Below are positions 666 through 50,050 of a DNA stretch of 64,000 nt, piece by piece. Position 1 is the first letter of the stretch. Every line of letters starts with the position of its first letter. Source of the stretch: Escherichia coli (GTDB lineage: Bacteria > Pseudomonadota > Gammaproteobacteria > Enterobacterales > Enterobacteriaceae). The stretch lies in assembly GCF_003018235.1 (NCBI RefSeq), contig NZ_CP027437.1. One strand, written 5' to 3'. The position numbers and the translations under genes were made by a program. A model generated the notes under the pieces. That model was not told the origin of the DNA. It saw only the letters and a program-made list of their open reading frames with translations, and ran no database searches.

Positions 666-1859
666 ATGCCAGTACAGATTTCAGGTGTGCTGAAGGATGG
701 TACAGGAAAACCGGTACCGGAGTGCACCATAGAGCTGAAAGCCGTGAGAACCAGTGAGACGGTGGTGGTCACCACGGTGGCGGAGTGTCAGCCGGGGGAA
801 ACAGGCAGTTACAGCATGCAGGTTGAGCCGGGGCGTTATCGTGTGACCCTGTGCGTGGAAGGTCGCCAGCCAGCATATGCCGGAGAGATTGATGTCATGG
901 CAGACGACAAACCGGGTACCCTGAATGCCTTTCTGCTCCGTGAAACGGATGCTGCGTATTACCCTGATGCACTGAAGAAACTGGAAGCGGCGGCGGATGA
1001 GGCTGTGCGCAGGGCGCGGGAAGCTGCTGAGAAAGCGGAAACTGCCGTGGGGCCACAGGGGCCAAAGGGAGATAAAGGCGAGAAGGGGGAGCAGGGGCCA
1101 AAGGGTGATAAGGGAGACACCGGTGCACAGGGGCCGAAGGGAGAAACCGGCGCTAAGGGTGACAAAGGTGATACAGGCCCCGCAGGTCCGAAAGGTGAGC
1201 GGGGCGACCCTGGCGGCCCACAGGGGCCAAAAGGGGATACGGGAGCCGCAGGTCCGGCAGGCCCACAGGGGCCGAAAGGGGATACCGGAGCCACAGGCCC
1301 GGCAGGCCCACAGGGACCAAAAGGAGATACCGGAGCCGCAGGTCCGGCAGGCCCACAGGGACCGAAAGGAGATACAGGAGCCACCGGTCCGGCAGGCCCA
1401 CAGGGACCGAAAGGAGATACGGGGGCCGCAGGCCCGGCAGGCCCACCGGGACCGAAAGGAGATACCGGAGCCACTGGTCCGGCAGGCCCACTGGGACCGA
1501 AAGGGGATACGGGAGCCACCGGTCCGGCAGGTCCGCAGGGGCCGAAAGGCGATACCGGAGCCACCGGTCCGGCAGGTCCGCAGGGTCCGGCGGGAAGTTC
1601 TGACAGCGGGTTGTTTGGCGTCGGTTCTTTTGTTCTTGCAGCGTATTACCCGACGAGTTACTCGGGGGACATGCCACCGGGCACAACTGTTGCCGGGTCA
1701 TCACTGTCTGCATGCTGCCTTTCGAATGGTACTCCCCTGATTGCGTCCGGTAATGTGGGGGAAACCCGTTTACCGGGGACGTGGCGTGCATGTGGTCCGT
1801 TAATATGGACATCTGCTGCGGGTATCAGACAGGCAGGATTATTTCAGCGCATATCATGA
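666..1859 (+). CDS. stf: Phage side tail fiber protein: lambda Stf-like N-terminal domain, central collagen-like Gly-X-Y region, short C-terminal domain
   Basis: N-terminus [17 protein letters not shown]... resembles lambda Stf; long [11 protein letters not shown] Gly-X-Y repeats; GGGGG Shine-Dalgarno before the ATG. Confidence 0.8.
1215..1583 (+). repeat. Tandem 45-bp (15-aa, [11 protein letters not shown][A/T]GPA) collagen-like repeats, 8 full units plus a partial unit, inside the tail fiber gene; the wider Gly-X-Y region spans about 1053..1595
   Basis: Direct reading of in-frame repeat units with synonymous and A/T variation between copies. Confidence 0.85.
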
Positions 1860-1869
1860 GGAGGTCAGG

Positions 1870-2475
1870 GTGGATAAGGGAAAAGAGATTCTTGCAGTAC
1901 GAAATGCCGGTTACAACGAATACGGCGGTATAAACTGTGAGGTGCAGTTTGAAGGCGCGGTGAATGAAAAAGGTGAAGCGTTATGGCTGCCATATACGGC
2001 AACGGAAACGGATAATACTGAACACGGAAAAGCATTATGGTCTGGTCTGACAGCAGGAAAGTACGGAGATGTGACCGCCTTTGCTGCCACGGAAGCTGTT
2101 CTTGAGGCGGCAAAATCGGTGAAAAGGGAGGAGATTAATCTCTGGCGGGACGTGCAGGAAAATATGGAATACGTGATGGAATTCAACGGAAGAAAATGGG
2201 ATTACGGCAAGAAGACATTGTCCAGGATAAGCACGACGCGCCTGATGGCGGAAAAAAACAGTCTTCCGGAAGGATTTGCGTGGACGGATGGTGAAAATAA
2301 TGTGGTGCCGGTGACGGCGGCGGAAGTTATCGCGCTGTCGGATGCGATAGAGAAGGCGATGTTTGCGAAGGGGGTGGAGATTAACACCAGACAGTTGCAG
2401 ATGAAAGCAGAGGTTGAGGCGCTGACAGAGCTGAAGTCCATCAGAAGTTATGTTGTTGGCTGGCCTGCCAGTTGA
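1870..2475 (+). CDS. Prophage protein in the tail fiber assembly (tfa) position, function unassigned; GTG start
   Basis: 201-aa ORF immediately after stf with a GAGGAGG Shine-Dalgarno; lambda gene order; no confident similarity to lambda Tfa from memory. Confidence 0.45.
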   Translation: MDKGKEILAVRNAGYNEYGGINCEVQFEGAVNEKGEALWLPYTATETDNTEHGKALWSGLTAGKYGDVTAFAATEAVLEAAKSVKREEINLWRDVQENMEYVMEFNGRKWDYGKKTLSRISTTRLMAEKNSLPEGFAWTDGENNVVPVTAAEVIALSDAIEKAMFAKGVEINTRQLQMKAEVEALTELKSIRSYVVGWPAS

Positions 2476-3135
2476 ATAAAAAAAGCGGGGCCACCCCCGG
2501 GCCCCGACATAACGAAGTATCAGATGTTTATAATTATTAGCTTACTAACTGTGCCATATCAGAATACTGCAGGAAGTGATGTTGTTATCATTTTTGCAAG
2601 CAGGGCGTTTCTGGAGGGAATCGATTGGTGATGGAGTGTGCAATGATGAAGGGAATAAGCCTCTGCAAAACAAAAAAAGACTTTAACAAAATCAAGCTCG
2701 CTTAGTGGCGCATCTGCCCGTATCCGCACCAGTCGTCCGGAAAATGATTCAAACACCGGGCGGCAAAAGTATTACCAGTGTAGCAACCTGGAATGCGGCG
2801 TATGCTTCTCAACTCTGGCAGCTTTCCATAAATTCACATCGAAACACGCTTCCGGCGTTCACTCTTCAGAAGGTATCCCGTGGCATGAACTGCCAGCTTC
2901 ACACTGGTGAAACAATCAGATGACTTTTCCTTTACCTCAAATTAACAGGCAGAATTGCCGGAGTAACAAAAAAACGATAGATTACGCGCGGGTGCCTTTC
3001 GGCTGATGGTCGGAGGGAATACCCGAAGGCCAGATGTGGAAAGGCCCCGGAAAACACTTTTGTTTAACCGAGGCCCTAACCGTCTACCCTAAGCAAGTGA
3101 TAGGTTAGCGCCTCCCCGAAAAAGGAGCAAGCGCT

Positions 3136-3276
3136 ATGTCGCAAAAATCGCTGATCGCCATCACGCTCTGCGTGACAGCAACCCTCATCATCTGGATATT
3201 GCACGGTTCGCTGTGTGAGATACGGATGAGTTTCTGGGGAGCGGAGTTTGCGGCGTTCTTACAGTGTAAGCAGTAA
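3136..3276 (+). CDS. Hok/Gef-family type I toxin-like small membrane protein (46 aa: MSQKSLIAITLCVTATLIIWILHGSLCEIRMSFWGAEFAAFLQCKQ)
   Basis: Not in the ORF track (under 60 aa). N-terminal transmembrane helix followed by the Hok signature SLCEIR ... E.AAF, closest in my memory to HokA and Hok of plasmid R1; AAAGGAG Shine-Dalgarno 7 nt upstream. Confidence 0.6.
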   Translation: MSQKSLIAITLCVTATLIIWILHGSLCEIRMSFWGAEFAAFLQCKQ

Positions 3277-3417
3277 GGAGACCGCGACGGGGGAGTAATC
3301 CCCCGTCAATCGGTTGTCAGGGTAAGGTCGAAGTGGCACCCAAATTTAAATAGAGGCCCACCAGTAAGAGTAAGAGCGGTGGGCTTAGCACTTGTTTAAA
3401 TTTGAAAGGAATTCTTT

Positions 3418-3714
3418 ATGAGTGAAATGGTATTTTGTCGCGGCTGCGGCAAGGAAATACATAAAAATGCCATATCTTGCCCCAATTGTGGAGCACCTCA
3501 AAGAACAGCAAGTTCAAAAAGCAGGATTACAGCTGCACTACTGGCTTTCTTTTTTGGTGGTCTCGGTGCACACAAATTTTATTTAGGTAAAGTGGGACAA
3601 GGATTTCTTTATCTTATTTTTTGCTGGACATTCATTCCGGCAATCGTGGCTTTTATTGAGTTTATTATCTATCTATGCACCTCAGATGAAGATTTCGCCC
3701 GCAAATATGGCTGA
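3418..3714 (+). CDS. Small membrane protein with an N-terminal zinc ribbon (CxxC-N11-CxxC) and a TM2 domain (GGLGAHKFYLGK motif)
   Basis: 98-aa ORF with AAGGA Shine-Dalgarno; motif reading only. Confidence 0.6.
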   Translation: MSEMVFCRGCGKEIHKNAISCPNCGAPQRTASSKSRITAALLAFFFGGLGAHKFYLGKVGQGFLYLIFCWTFIPAIVAFIEFIIYLCTSDEDFARKYG

Positions 3715-3739
3715 CATCTAGCGGACGAATCAGAATGAC

Positions 3740-3770
3740 AAACCCGCAACCCGCAGCGTAAAAACTGCGG
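3740..3770 (+). terminator. Rho-independent terminator after the TM2-domain gene
   Basis: CCCGCAG / CTGCGGG stem followed by TTTTCTTTT. Confidence 0.7.
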
Positions 3771-3960
3771 GTTTTCTTTTGCTACCCATCACGAATGAGG
3801 GCACCATAAAGAAAGCCCACAGCATAGTGGTTGCGGGCTTTTTACATTCAAAGATGGACGTTTTATGGACATTGAAAGTTTAAATCCTTTAACTTTCAAC
3901 TGGTTGATGCTAATTTTAACGCACCCGAAGGCGCGTTGGCGATACACTCAATATAAAGGA

Positions 3961-4356
<396 letters not shown>

Positions 4357-7153: not shown

Positions 7154-7215
7154 CCTAAAGAATCAAGACGATCCGGTACGCGTGATTTTCTTTTCACATT
7201 AATCTGGTCAATAAC

Positions 7216-7243
7216 CTTGAATAATTGAGGGATGACCTCATTT
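7216..7243 (+). promoter_or_regulatory. Sigma32 heat-shock promoter of clpB (-35 CTTGAA, -10 CCTCATTT)
   Basis: Motif match to the sigma32 consensus, about 40 nt upstream of the clpB start. Confidence 0.6.
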
Positions 7244-7282
7244 AATCTCCAGTAGCAACTTTGATCCGTTATGGGAGGAGTT

Positions 7283-9856
7283 ATGCGTCTGGATCGTCTT
7301 ACTAATAAATTCCAGCTTGCTCTTGCCGATGCCCAATCACTTGCACTCGGGCACGACAACCAATTCATCGAACCACTTCATTTAATGAGCGCCCTGCTGA
7401 ATCAGGAAGGGGGTTCGGTTAGTCCTTTATTAACATCCGCTGGCATAAATGCTGGCCAGTTGCGCACAGATATCAATCAGGCATTAAATCGTTTACCGCA
7501 GGTTGAAGGTACTGGTGGTGATGTCCAGCCATCACAGGATCTGGTGCGCGTTCTTAATCTTTGCGACAAGCTGGCGCAAAAACGTGGTGATAACTTTATC
7601 TCGTCAGAACTGTTCGTTCTGGCGGCACTTGAGTCTCGCGGCACGCTGGCCGACATCCTGAAAGCAGCAGGGGCGACCACCGCCAACATTACTCAAGCGA
7701 TTGAACAAATGCGTGGAGGTGAAAGCGTGAACGATCAAGGTGCTGAAGACCAACGTCAGGCTTTGAAAAAATATACCATCGACCTTACCGAACGAGCCGA
7801 ACAGGGCAAACTCGATCCGGTGATTGGTCGTGATGAAGAAATTCGCCGTACCATTCAGGTGCTGCAACGTCGTACTAAAAATAACCCAGTACTGATTGGT
7901 GAACCCGGCGTCGGTAAAACTGCCATCGTTGAAGGTCTGGCGCAGCGTATTATCAACGGCGAAGTGCCGGAAGGGTTGAAAGGCCGCCGCGTACTGGCGC
8001 TGGATATGGGCGCGCTGGTGGCTGGGGCGAAATATCGCGGTGAGTTTGAAGAACGTTTAAAAGGCGTGCTTAACGATCTTGCCAAACAGGAAGGCAACGT
8101 CATCCTGTTTATCGACGAATTACATACCATGGTCGGCGCGGGTAAAGCCGATGGCGCAATGGACGCCGGAAACATGCTGAAACCGGCGCTGGCGCGTGGT
8201 GAATTGCACTGCGTAGGTGCCACGACGCTTGACGAATATCGCCAGTACATCGAAAAAGATGCTGCGCTGGAACGTCGTTTCCAGAAAGTGTTTGTTGCCG
8301 AGCCTTCTGTTGAAGATACCATTGCGATTCTGCGTGGCCTGAAAGAACGTTACGAATTGCACCACCATGTGCAAATTACTGACCCGGCAATTGTTGCAGC
8401 GGCGACGTTGTCTCATCGCTACATTGCTGACCGTCAGCTGCCGGATAAAGCCATCGACCTGATCGATGAAGCAGCATCCAGCATTCGTATGCAGATCGAC
8501 TCAAAACCAGAAGAACTCGACCGACTCGATCGTCGTATCATCCAGCTTAAACTGGAACAACAGGCGTTAATGAAAGAGTCTGATGAAGCCAGTAAAAAAC
8601 GCCTGGATATGCTCAACGAAGAACTGAGCGACAAAGAACGTCAGTACTCCGAGTTAGAAGAAGAGTGGAAAGCAGAGAAAGCATCGCTTTCTGGTACACA
8701 GACCATTAAAGCGGAACTGGAACAGGCGAAAATCGCTATTGAACAGGCTCGCCGTGTGGGTGACCTGGCGCGGATGTCTGAACTGCAATACGGCAAAATC
8801 CCGGAACTGGAAAAGCAACTGGAAGCCGCAACGCAGCTCGAAGGCAAAACTATGCGTCTGTTGCGTAATAAAGTGACCGATGCCGAAATTGCTGAAGTGC
8901 TGGCGCGTTGGACGGGGATTCCGGTTTCTCGCATGATGGAAAGCGAGCGCGAAAAACTGCTGCGTATGGAGCAAGAGCTGCACCATCGCGTTATTGGTCA
9001 GAACGAAGCGGTTGATGCGGTATCTAACGCTATTCGTCGTAGCCGTGCGGGGCTGGCGGATCCAAATCGCCCGATTGGTTCATTCCTGTTCCTCGGCCCA
9101 ACGGGTGTGGGGAAAACTGAGCTTTGTAAGGCGCTGGCGAACTTTATGTTTGATAGCGACGAGGCGATGGTCCGTATCGATATGTCCGAGTTTATGGAGA
9201 AACACTCGGTGTCTCGTCTGGTTGGTGCGCCTCCGGGATATGTCGGTTATGAAGAAGGTGGCTACCTGACCGAAGCGGTGCGTCGTCGTCCGTATTCCGT
9301 CATCCTGCTGGATGAAGTGGAAAAAGCGCATCCGGATGTCTTCAACATTCTGTTGCAGGTACTGGATGATGGGCGTCTGACTGACGGGCAGGGGAGAACG
9401 GTCGACTTCCGTAATACGGTTGTCATTATGACCTCTAACCTCGGTTCCGATTTGATTCAGGAACGCTTCGGTGAACTGGATTATGCGCACATGAAAGAGC
9501 TGGTGCTCGGTGTGGTAAGCCATAACTTCCGTCCGGAATTCATTAACCGTATCGATGAAGTGGTGGTCTTCCATCCGCTGGGTGAACAGCACATTGCGTC
9601 GATTGCGCAGATTCAGTTGAAACGTCTGTACAAACGTCTGGAAGAACGTGGTTATGAAATCCACATTTCTGACGAGGCGCTGAAACTGCTGAGCGAGAAC
9701 GGTTACGATCCGGTCTATGGTGCACGTCCTCTGAAACGTGCTATCCAGCAGCAGATCGAAAACCCGCTGGCACAGCAAATACTGTCTGGTGAATTGGTTC
9801 CGGGTAAAGTTATTCGCCTGGAAGTTAATGAAGACCGGATTGTCGCCGTCCAGTAA
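7283..9856 (+). CDS. clpB: Disaggregase chaperone ClpB (AAA+); internal GTG at 7727 (codon 149) is the known start of the short ClpB isoform
   Basis: 857 aa from the ATG at 7283 (GGGAGGAG Shine-Dalgarno); the ORF track begins 4 codons earlier at 7271; two Walker A motifs. Confidence 0.95.
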
Positions 9857-10297: not shown

Positions 10298-11839
<1,542 letters not shown>

Positions 11840-11924
11840 CCTTAAAGAACTGTGCTTTGCAGTGCTCACACAGATTGTCTGATGAAAAGTGAAAAGCAAG
11901 GCGTCTTGCGAAGCAGACTGATAC

Positions 11925-12000
11925 GTCCCCTTCGTCTAGAGGCCCAGGACACCGCCCTTTCACGGCGGTAACAGGGGTTCGAATCCCCTAGGGGACGCCA
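11925..12000 (+). tRNA. gltW: tRNA-Glu (UUC) in the 16S-23S spacer
   Basis: GTCCCCTTCGTCTAGAGG ... GGGGACGCCA, 76 nt ending in CCA. Confidence 0.95.
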
Positions 12001-12193
12001 CTTGCTGGTTTGTGAGTGAAAGTCACCTGCCTTAATATCTCAAAACTCATCTTCGGGTGACGTTTGAGATATTTGCTCTTTAAAAATCTGGATCAAGCTG
12101 AAAATTGAAACACTGAACAACGAAAGTTGTTCGTGAGTCTCTCAAATTTTCGCAACACGATGATGAATCGAAAGAAACATCTTCGGGTTGTGA

Positions 12194-15097
<2,904 letters not shown>

Positions 15098-15189
15098 ACA
15101 ACGCCGAAGCTGTTTTGGCGGATGAGAGAAGATTTTCAGCCTGATACAGATTAAATCAGAACGCAGAAGCGGTCTGATGAAACAGAATT

Positions 15190-15309
15190 TGCCTGGCGGC
15201 CTTAGCGCGGTGGTCCCACCTGACCCCATGCCGAACTCAGAAGTGAAACGCCGTAGCGCCGATGGTAGTGTGGGGTCTCCCCATGCGAGAGTAGGGAACT
15301 GCCAGGCAT
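15190..15309 (+). rRNA. rrfG: 5S ribosomal RNA
   Basis: TGCCTGGCGGC ... GCCAGGCAT; 120 nt. Confidence 0.97.
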
Positions 15310-32446: not shown

Positions 32447-33402
32447 TGAAGCAACTTTGGTTTGCCATGTCATTAGTGACAGGTAGCCTGTTATTCTCTG
32501 CTAACGCCTCGGCCACTCCCGCGTCCGGGGCGTTATTACAGCAGATGAACCTGGCCAGTCAGTCACTGAATTACGAGCTGTCATTCATCAGCATCAATAA
32601 ACAGGGTGTTGAGTCTCTGCGTTATCGACATGCACGCCTCGATAACCGTCCTCTTGCACAATTGTTGCAAATGGATGGCCCGCGCCGGGAAGTGGTACAG
32701 CGCGGCAATGAAATCAGCTATTTTGAACCGGGACTTGAACCGTTCACGCTTAATGGCGATTACATTGTTGATTCTCTACCATCGCTCATCTATACCGATT
32801 TCAAACGCCTTTCTCCTTACTACGACTTTATCTCCGTCGGGCGCACGCGTATTGCTGATCGTCTTTGCGAAGTCATTCGTGTGGTTGCCCGAGATGGTAC
32901 ACGCTACAGCTACATCGTGTGGATGGACACCGAATCGAAATTACCGATGCGGGTTGATCTCCTTGATCGCGATGGTGAAACGCTGGAACAATTTCGCGTG
33001 ATTGCTTTTAATGTCAATCAGGATATCAGCAGCAGTATGCAGACGCTGGCGAAGGCAAATTTGCCGCCGTTGCTTTCTGTTCCTGTAGGTGAAAAAGCTA
33101 AATTCAGCTGGACGCCAACCTGGTTGCCACAGGGTTTTAGCGAAGTTTCCAGTAGTCGACGTCCGCTACCGACGATGGACAACATGCCTATCGAATCACG
33201 TCTCTATTCCGACGGATTATTCAGCTTCTCGGTAAACGTTAACCGCGCTACGCCATCGAGCACCGATCAGATGTTGCGCACCGGGCGCAGAACCGTCAGT
33301 ACAAGCGTACGTGATAACGCCGAAATCACCATTGTCGGTGAACTGCCGCCGCAAACGGCGAAACGCATTGCCGAGAATATTAAGTTCGGGGCAACGCAAT
33401 GA
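32446..33402 (+). CDS. rseB: SigmaE regulatory protein RseB (periplasmic)
   Basis: 318 aa; TAATG overlap with rseA. Confidence 0.95.
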   Translation: MKQLWFAMSLVTGSLLFSANASATPASGALLQQMNLASQSLNYELSFISINKQGVESLRYRHARLDNRPLAQLLQMDGPRREVVQRGNEISYFEPGLEPFTLNGDYIVDSLPSLIYTDFKRLSPYYDFISVGRTRIADRLCEVIRVVARDGTRYSYIVWMDTESKLPMRVDLLDRDGETLEQFRVIAFNVNQDISSSMQTLAKANLPPLLSVPVGEKAKFSWTPTWLPQGFSEVSSSRRPLPTMDNMPIESRLYSDGLFSFSVNVNRATPSSTDQMLRTGRRTVSTSVRDNAEITIVGELPPQTAKRIAENIKFGATQ

Positions 33403-33878
33403 TCAAAGAGTGGGCTACCGTCGTCTCCTGGGAAAACGGGCAGGCGCTGGTTAGTTGTGATGTTAAAGCCTCATGCAGCAGCTGCGCTTCACGTGCCGGT
33501 TGCGGTAGCCGCGTGTTGAATAAACTTGGCCCGCAAACCACGCATACCATTGTCGTACCCTGTGATGAGCCGTTAGTGCCGGGGCAAAAAGTAGAATTAG
33601 GAATCGCCGAAGGCAGCCTGCTTAGCTCCGCATTACTGGTTTATATGTCGCCGCTGGTGGGATTATTCCTCATCGCTTCACTATTTCAGCTACTCTTTGC
33701 TTCAGATATTGCAGCATTATGCGGTGCGATTCTCGGTGGCGTTGGTGGATTCCTGATTGCACGTGGCTGCTCTCGAAAGTTTGCTGCCCGGGCAGAATGG
33801 CAACCGATCATCTTAAGCGTGGCATTGCCGCCTGGCCTTGTGCGATTTGAAACATCTTCGGAAGACGCGAGCCAGTGA
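33399..33878 (+). CDS. rseC: RseC (SoxR-reducing system / sigmaE regulatory protein)
   Basis: 159 aa; ATGA overlap with rseB. Confidence 0.9.
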   Translation: MIKEWATVVSWENGQALVSCDVKASCSSCASRAGCGSRVLNKLGPQTTHTIVVPCDEPLVPGQKVELGIAEGSLLSSALLVYMSPLVGLFLIASLFQLLFASDIAALCGAILGGVGGFLIARGCSRKFAARAEWQPIILSVALPPGLVRFETSSEDASQ

Positions 33879-34075
33879 TTTCACTGGCTTTGTTGCATTT
33901 TGCATAACAAATGCGAGGACGTTTCCAGATACCACAATCCATACGGTATGAACATTTCCTCGCCTCAATGTTGTAGTGTAGAATGCGGCGTTTCTATTAA
34001 TACAGACGTTAAGCTCAGAACAGCGACTTCTAAAAGCCTGGTTAACCGGGCATTAAGGCACAATAATCATACTTT

Positions 34076-35875
<1,800 letters not shown>

Positions 35876-36915: not shown

Positions 36916-37107
36916 TTATGAGATAAATCTCCCGTGGCTAACGACATCCCCCGTCGTTGTGTATAGAATATTCCCCCGAAGTTTAAGGTTGGCACCTCCA
37001 GGTTGCCACGGCACACGAAACAGCGTTGGTCCCCATATACCGGTAAACTGAAACTGCAGCGAAGCAGTTAGCAGAACCATGTATATCAGGTCTGTTTCGT
37101 GTGCTGA

Positions 37108-38720
<1,613 letters not shown>

Positions 38721-40583: not shown

Positions 40584-40605
40584 AAAAATACCGTTCTCTT
40601 TATAA

Positions 40606-40680
40606 AGTAAAACCCCCGAACTGGTAAGGAACGGGGGTTTTCACTTTACAACTTTAATTTTGTGCAGCACACGATTCCAA
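40606..40680 (-). ncRNA. ohsC: Putative OhsC antisense sRNA (antitoxin of shoB); extent approximate
   Basis: Known K-12 arrangement (divergent from shoB); minus-strand terminator at 40608..40641 and a candidate -10 CATAAT about 40689..40694; boundaries are inferred. Confidence 0.3.
40608..40641. terminator. Bidirectional hairpin terminator (acpS on +; presumed ohsC on -)
   Basis: CCCCCG / CGGGGG stem flanked by an A-run and a T-run. Confidence 0.7.
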
Positions 40681-41004
40681 CAGAAATGATTATGGATCAA
40701 TTTCGTTATCCTGTACAAGCAACTTGCAATCTCTGACATAAAAAACGCGAGCCTTTACGAAGAAATCGACATTGATAAAAAGATTAACGTGACCGCTTTT
40801 TGATAAGTACATTAAAATCGGTTTCGTTATTGGCAATTTTGCTGTGCTTTACACCATGCCACTGAATTCCCCCATTGAAACGAGTGGTGTCGTCAAAGCT
40901 CTGGTGTGGAGTGCAGCACTCGATTCCAATAACTCGCACGTTCAGTTTTGGGGAGATGTAAGGGCTAATCTGAACGGCTGCATTCCTTGTTTAAGGAAAA
41001 ACGA

Positions 41005-49860: not shown

Positions 49861-50050
49861 AGTGGCTCATTCACCGACTTATGTCAGCCCCTTCGGGACG
49901 TGCTACATAAAATTCGAATGACGCACAACAAGGTGCCTGCCGTCCAACTTCTGATATCAGCGTAGCTATATCAACCATCGGGCGAAACGTCGAGTTAGGC
50001 ACCGCCTTATTCCATAACAAAGCCGGGTAATTCCCGGCTTTGTTGTATCT
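49861..50050 (+). ncRNA. glmY: GlmY small RNA (regulator of glmS via GlmZ/RapZ)
   Basis: Starts AGTGGCTCATTCACCGACTTATGTCAGCCCCTTCGGG as recalled for GlmY; ends at the terminator AAAGCCGGGTAATTCCCGGCTTTGTT. Confidence 0.85.

What the first reader, a model, noticed from the sequence alone, without database searches (positions are those of the whole stretch)
1870..2475. Gene in the tail-fiber-assembly position with no recognisable Tfa similarity
A 201-aa ORF with a GTG start and a strong GAGGAGG Shine-Dalgarno follows stf exactly where lambda has tfa, but its sequence does not resemble lambda Tfa as I recall it. It could be an alternative fiber chaperone or a cargo gene.
Basis: partly seen in the sequence, partly recalled or inferred. 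Interest (0 to 1): 0.35.

Follow-up and report, generated by a model that had tools for sequence, protein, structure and literature searches.

The report
DUF4376-type tail-fibre assembly chaperone gene
The gene after the prophage's collagen-like side tail fibre is an ordinary member of a known phage protein family (DUF4376) whose members help tail fibres fold, so it does the job of lambda's Tfa with a different, non-homologous C-terminal module.

Summary
The ORF is real: 1870-2475 (+), 201 aa, GTG start, GAGGAGG 5 nt upstream and overlapping the stf stop codon, dN/dS about 0.12. It is not an orphan. It passes the Pfam threshold for DUF4376 (PF14301), matches PHROG 1141 at 4.7e-78, and RefSeq already names it "DUF4376 domain-containing protein".

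It has no detectable homology to lambda Tfa or Caudo_TAP (hhalign probability 1.1%). It is a profile homolog of Alteromonas phage V22 gp27, a DUF4376 protein shown by experiment to be a tail-fibre chaperone.

In 80 related phage loci the gene nearly always lies directly after a fibre gene. Natural chimeras link it to canonical Tfa proteins:
- Lambda-Tfa N-half + DUF4376 C-module.
- This ORF's N-domain + a Caudo_TAP or Phage_tail_APC C-module.

The N-domain type tracks a fibre C-terminal motif (PGTWRA...GLFQRIS). The DUF4376 module does not.

Verdict: this is a two-module tail-fibre assembly chaperone for the collagen-like Stf. It is a new member of a known kind and is not cargo. Whether it leaves the mature fibre or stays on as a cap cannot be decided here. 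Interest is low to modest.

The parts
666..1859 (+). Client side tail fibre gene (stf, 397 aa). It has a phage_tail_N attachment domain (aa 1-127), a collagen triple-helix region (about aa 128-312, including a 45-nt tandem repeat x8.3 at 1215-1589), and an unannotated C-terminal domain.
   Evidence: Pfam PF08400 at 1.4e-41 and PF01391 at 1e-27; tandem repeats; RefSeq name 'prophage tail fiber N-terminal domain-containing protein'.
1602..1856 (+). Stf C-terminal domain (aa 313-397), the presumed docking and nucleation site for the chaperone. It has no Pfam family, is not the PF06820 PfC domain of EPclA, and ends in the motif PGTWRA...GLFQRIS.
   Evidence: No Pfam hit. The motif is present in the fibre of all 33 non-redundant loci whose partner has the same N-domain type and in none of the 10 loci with other N-domain types. 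The same motif precedes N-domain relatives that carry other C-modules.
1858..1864 (+). Shine-Dalgarno GAGGAGG. It overlaps the stf stop codon (TGA 1857-1859) and lies 5 nt upstream of the GTG, which suggests translational coupling to stf.
   Evidence: Read directly from the sequence; conserved in relatives.
1870..2475 (+). DUF4376-type tail fibre assembly chaperone gene (201 aa, GTG start).
1870..2097 (+). N-terminal module (about aa 1-76): three beta strands plus a short helix. This is the variable, fibre-specific module.
   Evidence: AF2 model with strands 7-15, 21-31 and 37-44 and pLDDT above 90. Its profile finds 1804 proteins, among which DUF4376, Caudo_TAP and Phage_tail_APC C-modules occur. 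It co-varies with the fibre C-end.
2110..2430 (+). DUF4376 domain (aa 81-187): a helical body with a beta hairpin (aa 101-112). This is the conserved module.
   Evidence: Pfam PF14301 at 7.5e-15, 55.7 bits. There are 26 invariant columns in the alignment, nearly all in this half. AF2 secondary structure. hhalign to V22 gp27 gives 93.3% probability.
2486..2506 (.). GC-rich hairpin that closes the stf-chaperone unit. It has a T-run on the minus strand and an A-run upstream on the plus strand, so it may terminate in both directions.
   Evidence: Terminator-like scan.

Best explanation
The ORF encodes a two-module intermolecular tail-fibre assembly chaperone for the collagen-like side tail fibre encoded just upstream. 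Most likely (inferred) it is translated in coupling with stf. Its N-terminal three-stranded beta module docks on the fibre's C-terminal domain, the one ending in PGTWRA...GLFQRIS. The conserved helical DUF4376 module multimerises and brings three fibre C-termini into register. The C-terminal knob then trimerises and the collagen triple helix zips up from the C-terminal end. The protein afterwards either dissociates or stays for a while as a cap on the fibre tip. In function it replaces lambda Tfa, but its C-module is not detectably homologous to the Caudo_TAP C-module.

Shown here: family membership, homology to a proven chaperone, synteny, module swapping, and the link between N-module type and fibre end. 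Inferred: docking geometry, trimerisation, folding direction, and the fate of the protein after folding.
For: - Family: Pfam DUF4376 above the gathering score, PHROG 1141 at 4.7e-78, RefSeq name.
- Homology to a proven chaperone: hhalign of the family alignment against Alteromonas phage V22 gp27 gives 93.3% probability, E=2.8e-7, across the DUF4376 domain. gp27 has the same size and layout (195 aa, DUF4376 at 87-187). It is required for functional RBP gp26 and is absent from the final complex (PMC7289586). Campylobacter CJIE1 DUF4376 proteins are needed for one H-fibre and co-elute with the fibres (PMC7882524, PMC11464564).
- Synteny: in P-EibA (J-lom-orf401-orf191A), phiP27 (L56-L57), Av-05 and most of 80 IMG/VR loci the homolog starts within about 20 nt of the end of a long fibre ORF, or overlaps it. 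phiP27 has a canonical fibre+Tfa pair and, next to it, a phage_tail_N fibre + DUF4376 pair.
- Module swapping: the L074 protein is 62% identical to lambda Tfa over aa 1-117 (E=2e-53) and 54% identical to this ORF's aa 76-198 over its aa 116-238 (E=1e-47). The L061 and L075 proteins pass the Pfam cutoff for the N-half of Caudo_TAP plus DUF4376. In the other direction, this ORF's N-domain profile hits P0243, which carries Caudo_TAP positions 73-131, and P0249, which carries Phage_tail_APC.
- Fibre link: identity between fibre C-termini correlates with identity between N-modules (Mantel rho 0.65, p=0.0005) and not with identity between DUF4376 modules (rho 0.07, p=0.19). All 33 beta-type partners follow fibres ending in ...LFxRIx, against 0 of 10 others. 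The same fibre ending precedes beta-N proteins that carry other C-modules.
- Structure: AF2 model with pLDDT 94 shows three N-terminal strands, a helical body and a beta hairpin, as described for V22 gp27 and A5 gp9 (PMC10579305).
- Selection: dN/dS is about 0.12.
Against: - There is no experiment on this protein or any close enterobacterial homolog.
- Within the beta-type subset alone, fibre-end identity correlates about equally weakly with both modules (rho 0.27 and 0.23). The covariation signal is therefore categorical (which module type goes with which fibre end), not fine-grained.
- A related collagen-like fibre (EPclA, with a different PfC end) trimerises in E. coli with no partner reported (PMC3368898). 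A5 and RM1221 fibres work without their DUF4376 partner (PMC10579305, PMC11464564). The chaperone may therefore be dispensable.
- My single-chain 3:3 AF2 construct was inconclusive (pTM 0.46, fibre domain pLDDT 50-72).
- Fold searches of the PDB found no specific relative. The published resemblance to the T5 and K1F intramolecular chaperone domains was not reproduced.
- J and T are annotated as pseudogenes in this prophage, so the gene may no longer be used in this strain.
Confidence: 0.8

Rival explanations
1. The protein is a permanent structural part of the fibre, either a distal tip subunit, cap or adhesin that stays bound and contacts the receptor (like T2 gp38) or a Tfa that stays on the fibre tip (like Mu Tfa). 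On this reading it is not a transient folding helper.
For: PHROG families that match it are labelled 'tail fiber protein', and several phage records annotate homologs the same way. A5 and Campylobacter DUF4376 proteins co-elute with their fibres, and a 'transient cap' role has been proposed (PMC10579305, PMC11464564). The N-module tracks the fibre end, which fits a stable complex just as well.
Against: V22 gp27 separates completely from the functional RBP on SEC (PMC7289586). The most conserved part of the protein is the DUF4376 module, and dN/dS is 0.09 there. A receptor-contacting adhesin would be expected to vary most at its exposed end. The 'tail fiber protein' labels are automatic annotations, not experimental results.
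Confidence: 0.15
2. The ORF is a cargo (moron) gene carried downstream of the tail genes and unrelated to fibre assembly, comparable to effector or lysogenic-conversion genes found after stf in lambdoid prophages.
For: It lies near the prophage end. Genuine cargo-like genes follow it: an ogr-like zinc finger, Hok/Gef and a TM2 protein at 2722-3714. In the P-Eib prophages the eib genes follow the homolog.
Against: Its SD overlaps the stf stop codon and no promoter-like site lies between the two genes. Homologs sit directly after fibre genes in myoviruses, siphoviruses and podoviruses from distant hosts. Its modules recombine with those of canonical Tfa proteins. It has no PADLOC hit and no non-phage family hit.
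Confidence: 0.02
3. The ORF is really the C-terminal part of Stf, an intramolecular chaperone or distal domain that is normally fused to Stf. On this reading the split into two genes is a mutation or a sequencing artefact.
For: In strain A8 the two genes are annotated as one 587-aa CDS. [quoted passage not shown]
Against: The A8 fusion comes from a 1-nt deletion about 20 nt before the stf stop codon. The window and most relatives keep the stop codon, the SD and a separate start. Pfam finds no Peptidase_S74 hit. Fold searches did not recover the T5 or K1F domains.
Confidence: 0.03

Closest known systems
Alteromonas phage V22 gp27 and A5 gp9 (DUF4376 intermolecular tail-fibre chaperones; PMC7289586, PMC10579305)
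   Same: Both have a Pfam DUF4376 domain at the C-terminus of a protein of about 195-240 aa. Profile homology is 93.3%. Both genes lie directly downstream of the fibre/RBP gene. The predicted secondary-structure order is the same: three N-terminal strands, a helical body and a beta hairpin (one search compared with the paper's description).
   Different: Sequence identity is only about 21% and is confined to the DUF4376 domain, and the N-modules are unrelated by BLAST. The client here is a lambdoid side tail fibre with a phage_tail_N anchor and a collagen-like shaft, not a myovirus or schitovirus knob fibre. The host is enterobacterial. Nothing has been tested experimentally.
Lambda Tfa / Mu U (Caudo_TAP, PF02413; North et al. 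2019 as summarised in PMC7882524)
   Same: The genes occupy the same position after stf, and the proteins are similar in size. Both follow the same two-module logic: a variable N-module that matches the fibre tip and a conserved C-module. The modules are exchanged in nature. Lambda Tfa's N-half occurs fused to DUF4376, and this ORF's N-module occurs fused to the Caudo_TAP C-half.
   Different: No sequence or profile similarity to Caudo_TAP was found. The DUF4376 C-module is about 120 aa, against about 60 aa for the Caudo_TAP C-half. The statement in PMC7882524 and PMC11464564 that Mu U contains DUF4376 is not borne out by a Pfam scan of Mu U and U'.
ORF-191A/C/D/E of the P-Eib prophages of E. 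coli ECOR-9, and L57 of phage phiP27
   Same: These are the closest described homologs in phage records, at 34-43% identity over more than 90% of the length. The P-EibA layout is identical: J-lom-orf401(stf)-orf191. phiP27 L56 is also a phage_tail_N fibre, followed by L57 with DUF4376.
   Different: They are uncharacterised ORFs annotated as 'hypothetical' or 'tail fiber protein', and their client fibres have different shafts and ends.
C-terminal intramolecular chaperone domains of T5 pb1 and K1F endosialidase (Peptidase_S74)
   Same: The literature proposes a shared helical core plus beta-hairpin 'tentacle' and a capping position on the fibre tip (PMC10579305).

Membership tests
Pfam DUF4376 (PF14301) | Match to the family HMM above the curated gathering score | tested here: met
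   55.7 bits against a cutoff of 25, E=7.5e-15, aa 81-187 covering profile positions 2-99 of 106. All 80-odd homologs also carry PF14301.
DUF4376-type intermolecular tail-fibre chaperone (V22 gp27 type) | Homology to an experimentally characterised member | tested here: met
   hhalign of alignment A1 against V22 gp27 gives 93.3% probability, E=2.8e-7, over 126 aligned columns.
DUF4376-type intermolecular tail-fibre chaperone (V22 gp27 type) | Gene immediately downstream of the fibre/RBP gene on the same strand, encoding a protein of about 190-240 aa with DUF4376 at the C-terminus | tested here: met
   In the window there is a 10-nt gap after stf. The same arrangement is seen in P-EibA, phiP27, Av-05, V22 and most IMG/VR loci.
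DUF4376-type intermolecular tail-fibre chaperone (V22 gp27 type) | Predicted fold: N-terminal beta strands, alpha-helical body and a protruding beta hairpin | tested here: met
   AF2 model, pLDDT 94: E7-15, E21-31, E37-44, H75-98, hairpin E101-105/E108-112, H114-128, H150-184. BFVD Foldseek hits are DUF4376 phage proteins. Only the order of secondary-structure elements was compared with the published description; no superposition was possible.
DUF4376-type intermolecular tail-fibre chaperone (V22 gp27 type) | Required for, or binds to, the fibre in co-expression | not testable with these tools
   This needs wet-lab co-expression. The single-chain 3:3 AF2 surrogate was inconclusive (pTM 0.46).
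Canonical tail fibre assembly protein Tfa (Caudo_TAP, PF02413) | Match to the Caudo_TAP HMM, or profile homology to lambda Tfa / Mu U | tested here: not met
   No hit at E<=0.1. The controls lambda Tfa, Mu U and Mu U' score 127-148 bits. BLASTP gives E=0.021. hhalign of A1 against the Tfa alignment A2 gives 1.1%.
Canonical tail fibre assembly protein Tfa (Caudo_TAP, PF02413) | Two-module build: a variable N-module tied to the fibre C-end plus a conserved C-module | tested here: met
   Mean pairwise identity is 0.32 for the N-module and 0.53 for the C-module. The fibre end correlates with the N-module only. The N-module is shared with Caudo_TAP-bearing proteins.
T2/T6 gp38-type tip adhesin | Homology to gp38 adhesins (glycine-rich motifs and hypervariable segments) | tested here: not met
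   No such Pfam or PHROG family appears among the hits. The C-terminal half is the conserved part, not a hypervariable one.
Intramolecular chaperone domain (Peptidase_S74 / T5 pb1 C-terminus) | Covalently attached to the fibre C-terminus with an autoproteolytic Ser-Lys site; structural match to 3GW6 or 4UW8 | tested here: not met
Prophage cargo / moron or defence gene | Independent expression signals, variable presence relative to virion genes, and similarity to non-virion families | tested here: not met
   Coupled SD and no intervening promoter-like site. Constant linkage to fibre genes. No PADLOC hit.

The most novel reading that the evidence does not exclude
Tail-fibre assembly proteins would form one combinatorial two-module system. 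A fibre-specific N-module, here a three-stranded beta module, reads a short C-terminal fibre 'address' (PGTWRA...GLFQRIS). It can be joined to any of at least three non-homologous C-modules that do the same job: the Caudo_TAP C-half, DUF4376 and Phage_tail_APC. On this reading the window gene is the DUF4376 version, used to fold a collagen-like fibre, and DUF4376 is an independent evolutionary solution to fibre trimerisation. This would give a simple rule for predicting and engineering chaperone-fibre pairs.
Probability: 0.45. Interest if true: 0.4.

Novelty: new member of a known kind. Interest (0 to 1): 0.22.

Why it matters
The finding mainly clears up an annotation. The ORF can be labelled a DUF4376-type tail-fibre assembly chaperone instead of 'domain of unknown function' or 'tail fiber protein'.

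Two by-products have practical value:
- DUF4376, the Caudo_TAP C-half and Phage_tail_APC appear to be interchangeable C-modules attached to shared N-modules.
- The N-module type can be predicted from the last residues of the fibre (...GTWRA...LFQRIS).

Both help anyone who wants to express or retarget enterobacterial side tail fibres, for example in engineered phages, tailocins or fibre-based binders, because the matching chaperone usually has to be co-expressed. The gene also offers a tractable case of chaperone-assisted folding of a bacterial collagen-like trimer.

Tried and rejected
- Sequence search of the PDB found nothing relevant (best E=0.94).
- NCBIfam gave no hit, and PADLOC gave no hit.
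- A word-index search with the N-domain alone returned only short fragments. The exhaustive profile search was needed instead.
- The lambda Tfa homolog search returned only close relatives of at least 78% identity among those listed. The Tfa profile used for hhalign (A2) is therefore shallow even after adding Mu U, Mu U' and phiP27 L55, and a deeper profile could in principle reveal very remote homology.
- The single-chain 3x(fibre C-terminus + linker + chaperone) AF2 construct gave pTM 0.46 and mean pLDDT 63. The tool returns no contacts, so the result is inconclusive.
- Fine-grained covariation within the beta-type subset did not separate the N-module from the C-module (rho 0.27 and 0.23).
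- The 'natural fusion' seen in strain A8 proved to be a 1-nt deletion.
- Rfam found no RNA element in or next to the ORF.

Full report
**1. Where the window comes from**

The window is identical to E. coli O158:H23 strain CFIAFB20140388, NZ_CP076709.1. It begins in the lom gene of a lambdoid prophage. Upstream, outside the window, that prophage carries terminase, portal, tail genes and J. Homology to the core chromosome (raiA-bamD-rluD-yfiH-clpB) resumes at about window position 3918.

**2.

- An ORF of 201 codons runs from a GTG at 1870 to a stop codon ending at 2475.
- GAGGAGG lies at 1858-1864 and overlaps the TGA of the upstream gene.
- The upstream gene (666-1859) is a 397-aa side tail fibre with a phage_tail_N domain, collagen triple-helix repeats and an unannotated C-terminal domain of 85 aa.
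- Close relatives read ATGGTG at the start, while the window reads AGGGTG, so GTG is the start here.
- dN/dS against three relatives is 0.11-0.13, which marks a real coding gene.
- A GC-rich hairpin at 2486-2506 follows the ORF.

**3. The ORF is not lambda Tfa, but it is not an orphan**

There is no detectable link to lambda Tfa or Caudo_TAP:
- BLASTP against lambda Tfa finds nothing meaningful (E=0.021 over 30 residues).
- Pfam finds no Caudo_TAP hit. The controls lambda Tfa, Mu U and Mu U' score 127-148 bits.
- Profile-profile comparison of the ORF's family with a Tfa alignment gives 1.1% probability.

The ORF does belong to a named family:
- It passes the Pfam gathering score for DUF4376 (55.7 bits against 25, aa 81-187).
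- It matches PHROG 1141 at 4.7e-78.
- RefSeq names it "DUF4376 domain-containing protein".
- It has about 80 homolog clusters in Escherichia, Salmonella, Citrobacter and Cronobacter.
- The nearest homologs in phage records are ORF-191A/C/D/E of the P-Eib prophages, phiP27 L57, and genes of GER2, Rac-SA53 and Av-05.

**4. What the family does, from the literature**

- Alteromonas phage V22 gp27 has DUF4376 at its C-terminus and is encoded just after the RBP gp26. It is required to obtain functional gp26 and is not part of the final complex (PMC7289586).
- The A5 homolog gp9 co-elutes with its fibre but is dispensable, and a "transient cap" role was proposed from AlphaFold-Multimer hetero-hexamers (PMC10579305).
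- In Campylobacter CJIE1 prophages the DUF4376 protein downstream of the H-fibre is required for one fibre and not for another, and it co-purifies with both (PMC7882524, PMC11464564).
- I fetched V22 gp27. It scores 76 bits on DUF4376 and aligns to this ORF's family profile with 93.3% probability, E=2.8e-7.

**5. Synteny**

- P-EibA has the same J-lom-stf-orf191 layout.
- phiP27 carries a canonical fibre+Tfa pair (L54, L55) followed by a phage_tail_N fibre + DUF4376 pair (L56, L57).
- Av-05 and V22 show the same adjacency.
- In 80 IMG/VR loci the homolog nearly always starts within about 20 nt of the end of a long fibre-like ORF, or overlaps it.

**6. Modular architecture and chimeras**

- Within the family the C-terminal DUF4376 half is strongly conserved and the first 75 or so residues are variable.
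- Many relatives share only the DUF4376 half.
- The L074 protein is a clean chimera. Its aa 1-117 are 62% identical to lambda Tfa aa 1-117 (E=2e-53). Its aa 116-238 are 54% identical to this ORF's aa 76-198 (E=1e-47).
- The L061 and L075 proteins pass the Pfam threshold for the N-half of Caudo_TAP joined to DUF4376.
- In the other direction, a profile of this ORF's N-domain finds 1804 proteins among 1.84 billion representatives. Of 68 longer hits, 19 carry DUF4376, 14 carry Caudo_TAP and 3 carry Phage_tail_APC. One example is P0243, with the N-domain at 99.1% hhalign probability plus Caudo_TAP positions 73-131. Another is P0249, with Phage_tail_APC at E=2.8e-22.

The ORF is therefore built from two modules that both circulate among tail-fibre assembly proteins. 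The C-modules can replace one another.

**7. Which module reads the fibre**

- Across 43 non-redundant fibre/partner pairs, identity of the fibre's last 100 residues correlates with N-module identity (Mantel rho 0.65, p=0.0005) and not with DUF4376 identity (rho 0.07, p=0.19).
- The signal is categorical. All 33 partners with the beta-type N-module follow fibres ending in PGTW/Y..A...(G)LFxRIx, and none of the 10 others do.
- The same fibre ending precedes beta-N proteins that carry Phage_tail_APC or a Tfa-like C-end (L091 and L092).
- Within the beta-type subset alone the two modules are not distinguishable.

**8. Structure**

- AF2 gives a confident model (pLDDT 94). It has three N-terminal strands, a short helix, a long helix, a beta hairpin at aa 101-112 and two further long helices. 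This matches the published description of V22 gp27 and A5 gp9.
- BFVD Foldseek returns DUF4376 proteins from many unrelated phages.
- The PDB holds no specific relative.
- I could not reproduce the proposed likeness to the T5 and K1F intramolecular chaperone domains.
- A single-chain 3:3 fibre-end/chaperone construct was inconclusive (pTM 0.46).

**9. Mechanism (inferred)**

The protein is made in coupling with Stf. Its N-module docks on the Stf C-terminal domain, and the DUF4376 helical module multimerises and aligns three chains. The knob trimerises, and the collagen helix forms from the C-terminal end. In the related fibre EPclA the C-terminal domain nucleates the triple helix (PMC3368898). 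The chaperone then leaves or stays briefly as a cap.

**10. Rivals and verdict**

- Permanent tip subunit or adhesin: cannot be excluded.
- Cargo gene: rejected on coupling, synteny and module sharing. There is also no PADLOC hit.
- Split C-terminal domain of Stf: rejected. The single fused annotation, in strain A8, is a 1-nt deletion.

The finding is a new member of a known kind. Interest is low to modest. The useful by-products are the evidence that C-modules are interchangeable and the link between the fibre-end motif and the N-module type.

Noticed in passing
L002 (E. coli A8, NZ_CP028766.1) 3900-4010; equivalent to window ~1841: A 1-nt deletion (ATTATTT to ATTTTT) about 20 nt before the stf stop codon fuses stf to the DUF4376 ORF. 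RefSeq annotates the result as a single 587-aa 'prophage tail fiber N-terminal domain-containing protein'. It could be a real mutation or a homopolymer sequencing error.
   Followed up: yes
window 2476-3917: A cargo-like stretch lies between the chaperone gene and the chromosome junction. It holds an ogr/Delta-like zinc-finger ORF (2722-2910), a Hok/Gef toxin ORF (3136-3276) with no Rfam Sok-type antisense hit, and a zinc-ribbon + TM2-domain membrane protein (3418-3714). Homology to nearly all E. coli genomes resumes at about 3918, just before raiA. Only 67 of 5426 genomes carry most of this stretch.
   Followed up: partly
L001 9321-9599 and 14750-17740 (same prophage, upstream of the window): The tail assembly gene T and the host-specificity gene J are annotated as truncated pseudogenes in this prophage, so the prophage may be defective and its fibre module unused. 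Strain A8 shows the same truncated J, and in addition an IS3 element inside lom.
   Followed up: no
window 1215-1589 (and 959-1564 minus strand): The collagen-like shaft of stf is a 45-nt tandem repeat (8.3 copies, 89% matches) that encodes [11 protein letters not shown](A/T)GPA units. The 201-aa antisense ORF at 959-1564 and the other long overlapping ORFs are by-products of this repeat.
   Followed up: partly
window 1602-1856 (Stf aa 313-397) and fibre C-termini in L005-L092: Fibres with very different shafts share an unannotated C-terminal domain of about 90 aa, with the consensus VGSxVLAAY...GSxL...PGTWRA...GLFQRIx. It has no Pfam family and is distinct from the PF06820 'PfC' domain of the O157 collagen-like fibre EPclA.
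   Followed up: partly
L004 (phage Mu) 2976-3503 and 3532-4065: Two Campylobacter papers (PMC7882524, PMC11464564) state that Mu U (TfaMu) contains DUF4376. A Pfam scan of Mu U and U' finds only Caudo_TAP (127-128 bits) and no DUF4376, so the two families seem to have been conflated.
   Followed up: yes
P0215 (572 aa, metagenomic representative): This protein matches the beta-type N-domain profile in nine separate stretches and has weak glycosidase-family Pfam hits. It may be a repeat protein or a compositional artefact, and it remains unexplained.
   Followed up: no
L006 (phage phiP27) 959-4567: phiP27 carries two consecutive fibre/helper pairs of different kinds: L54 + L55 (Caudo_TAP Tfa) and L56 (phage_tail_N fibre) + L57 (DUF4376). 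This is a natural side-by-side case of the two chaperone types.
   Followed up: partly
window 7164-7302, 10298-15307, 33363-34194, 36978-37192, 40604-40681, 49861-50008: The rest of the window is ordinary E. coli chromosome. Rfam finds RyfD, an rRNA operon with tRNA-Glu, AsrC, rncO, OhsC and GlmY.
   Followed up: no
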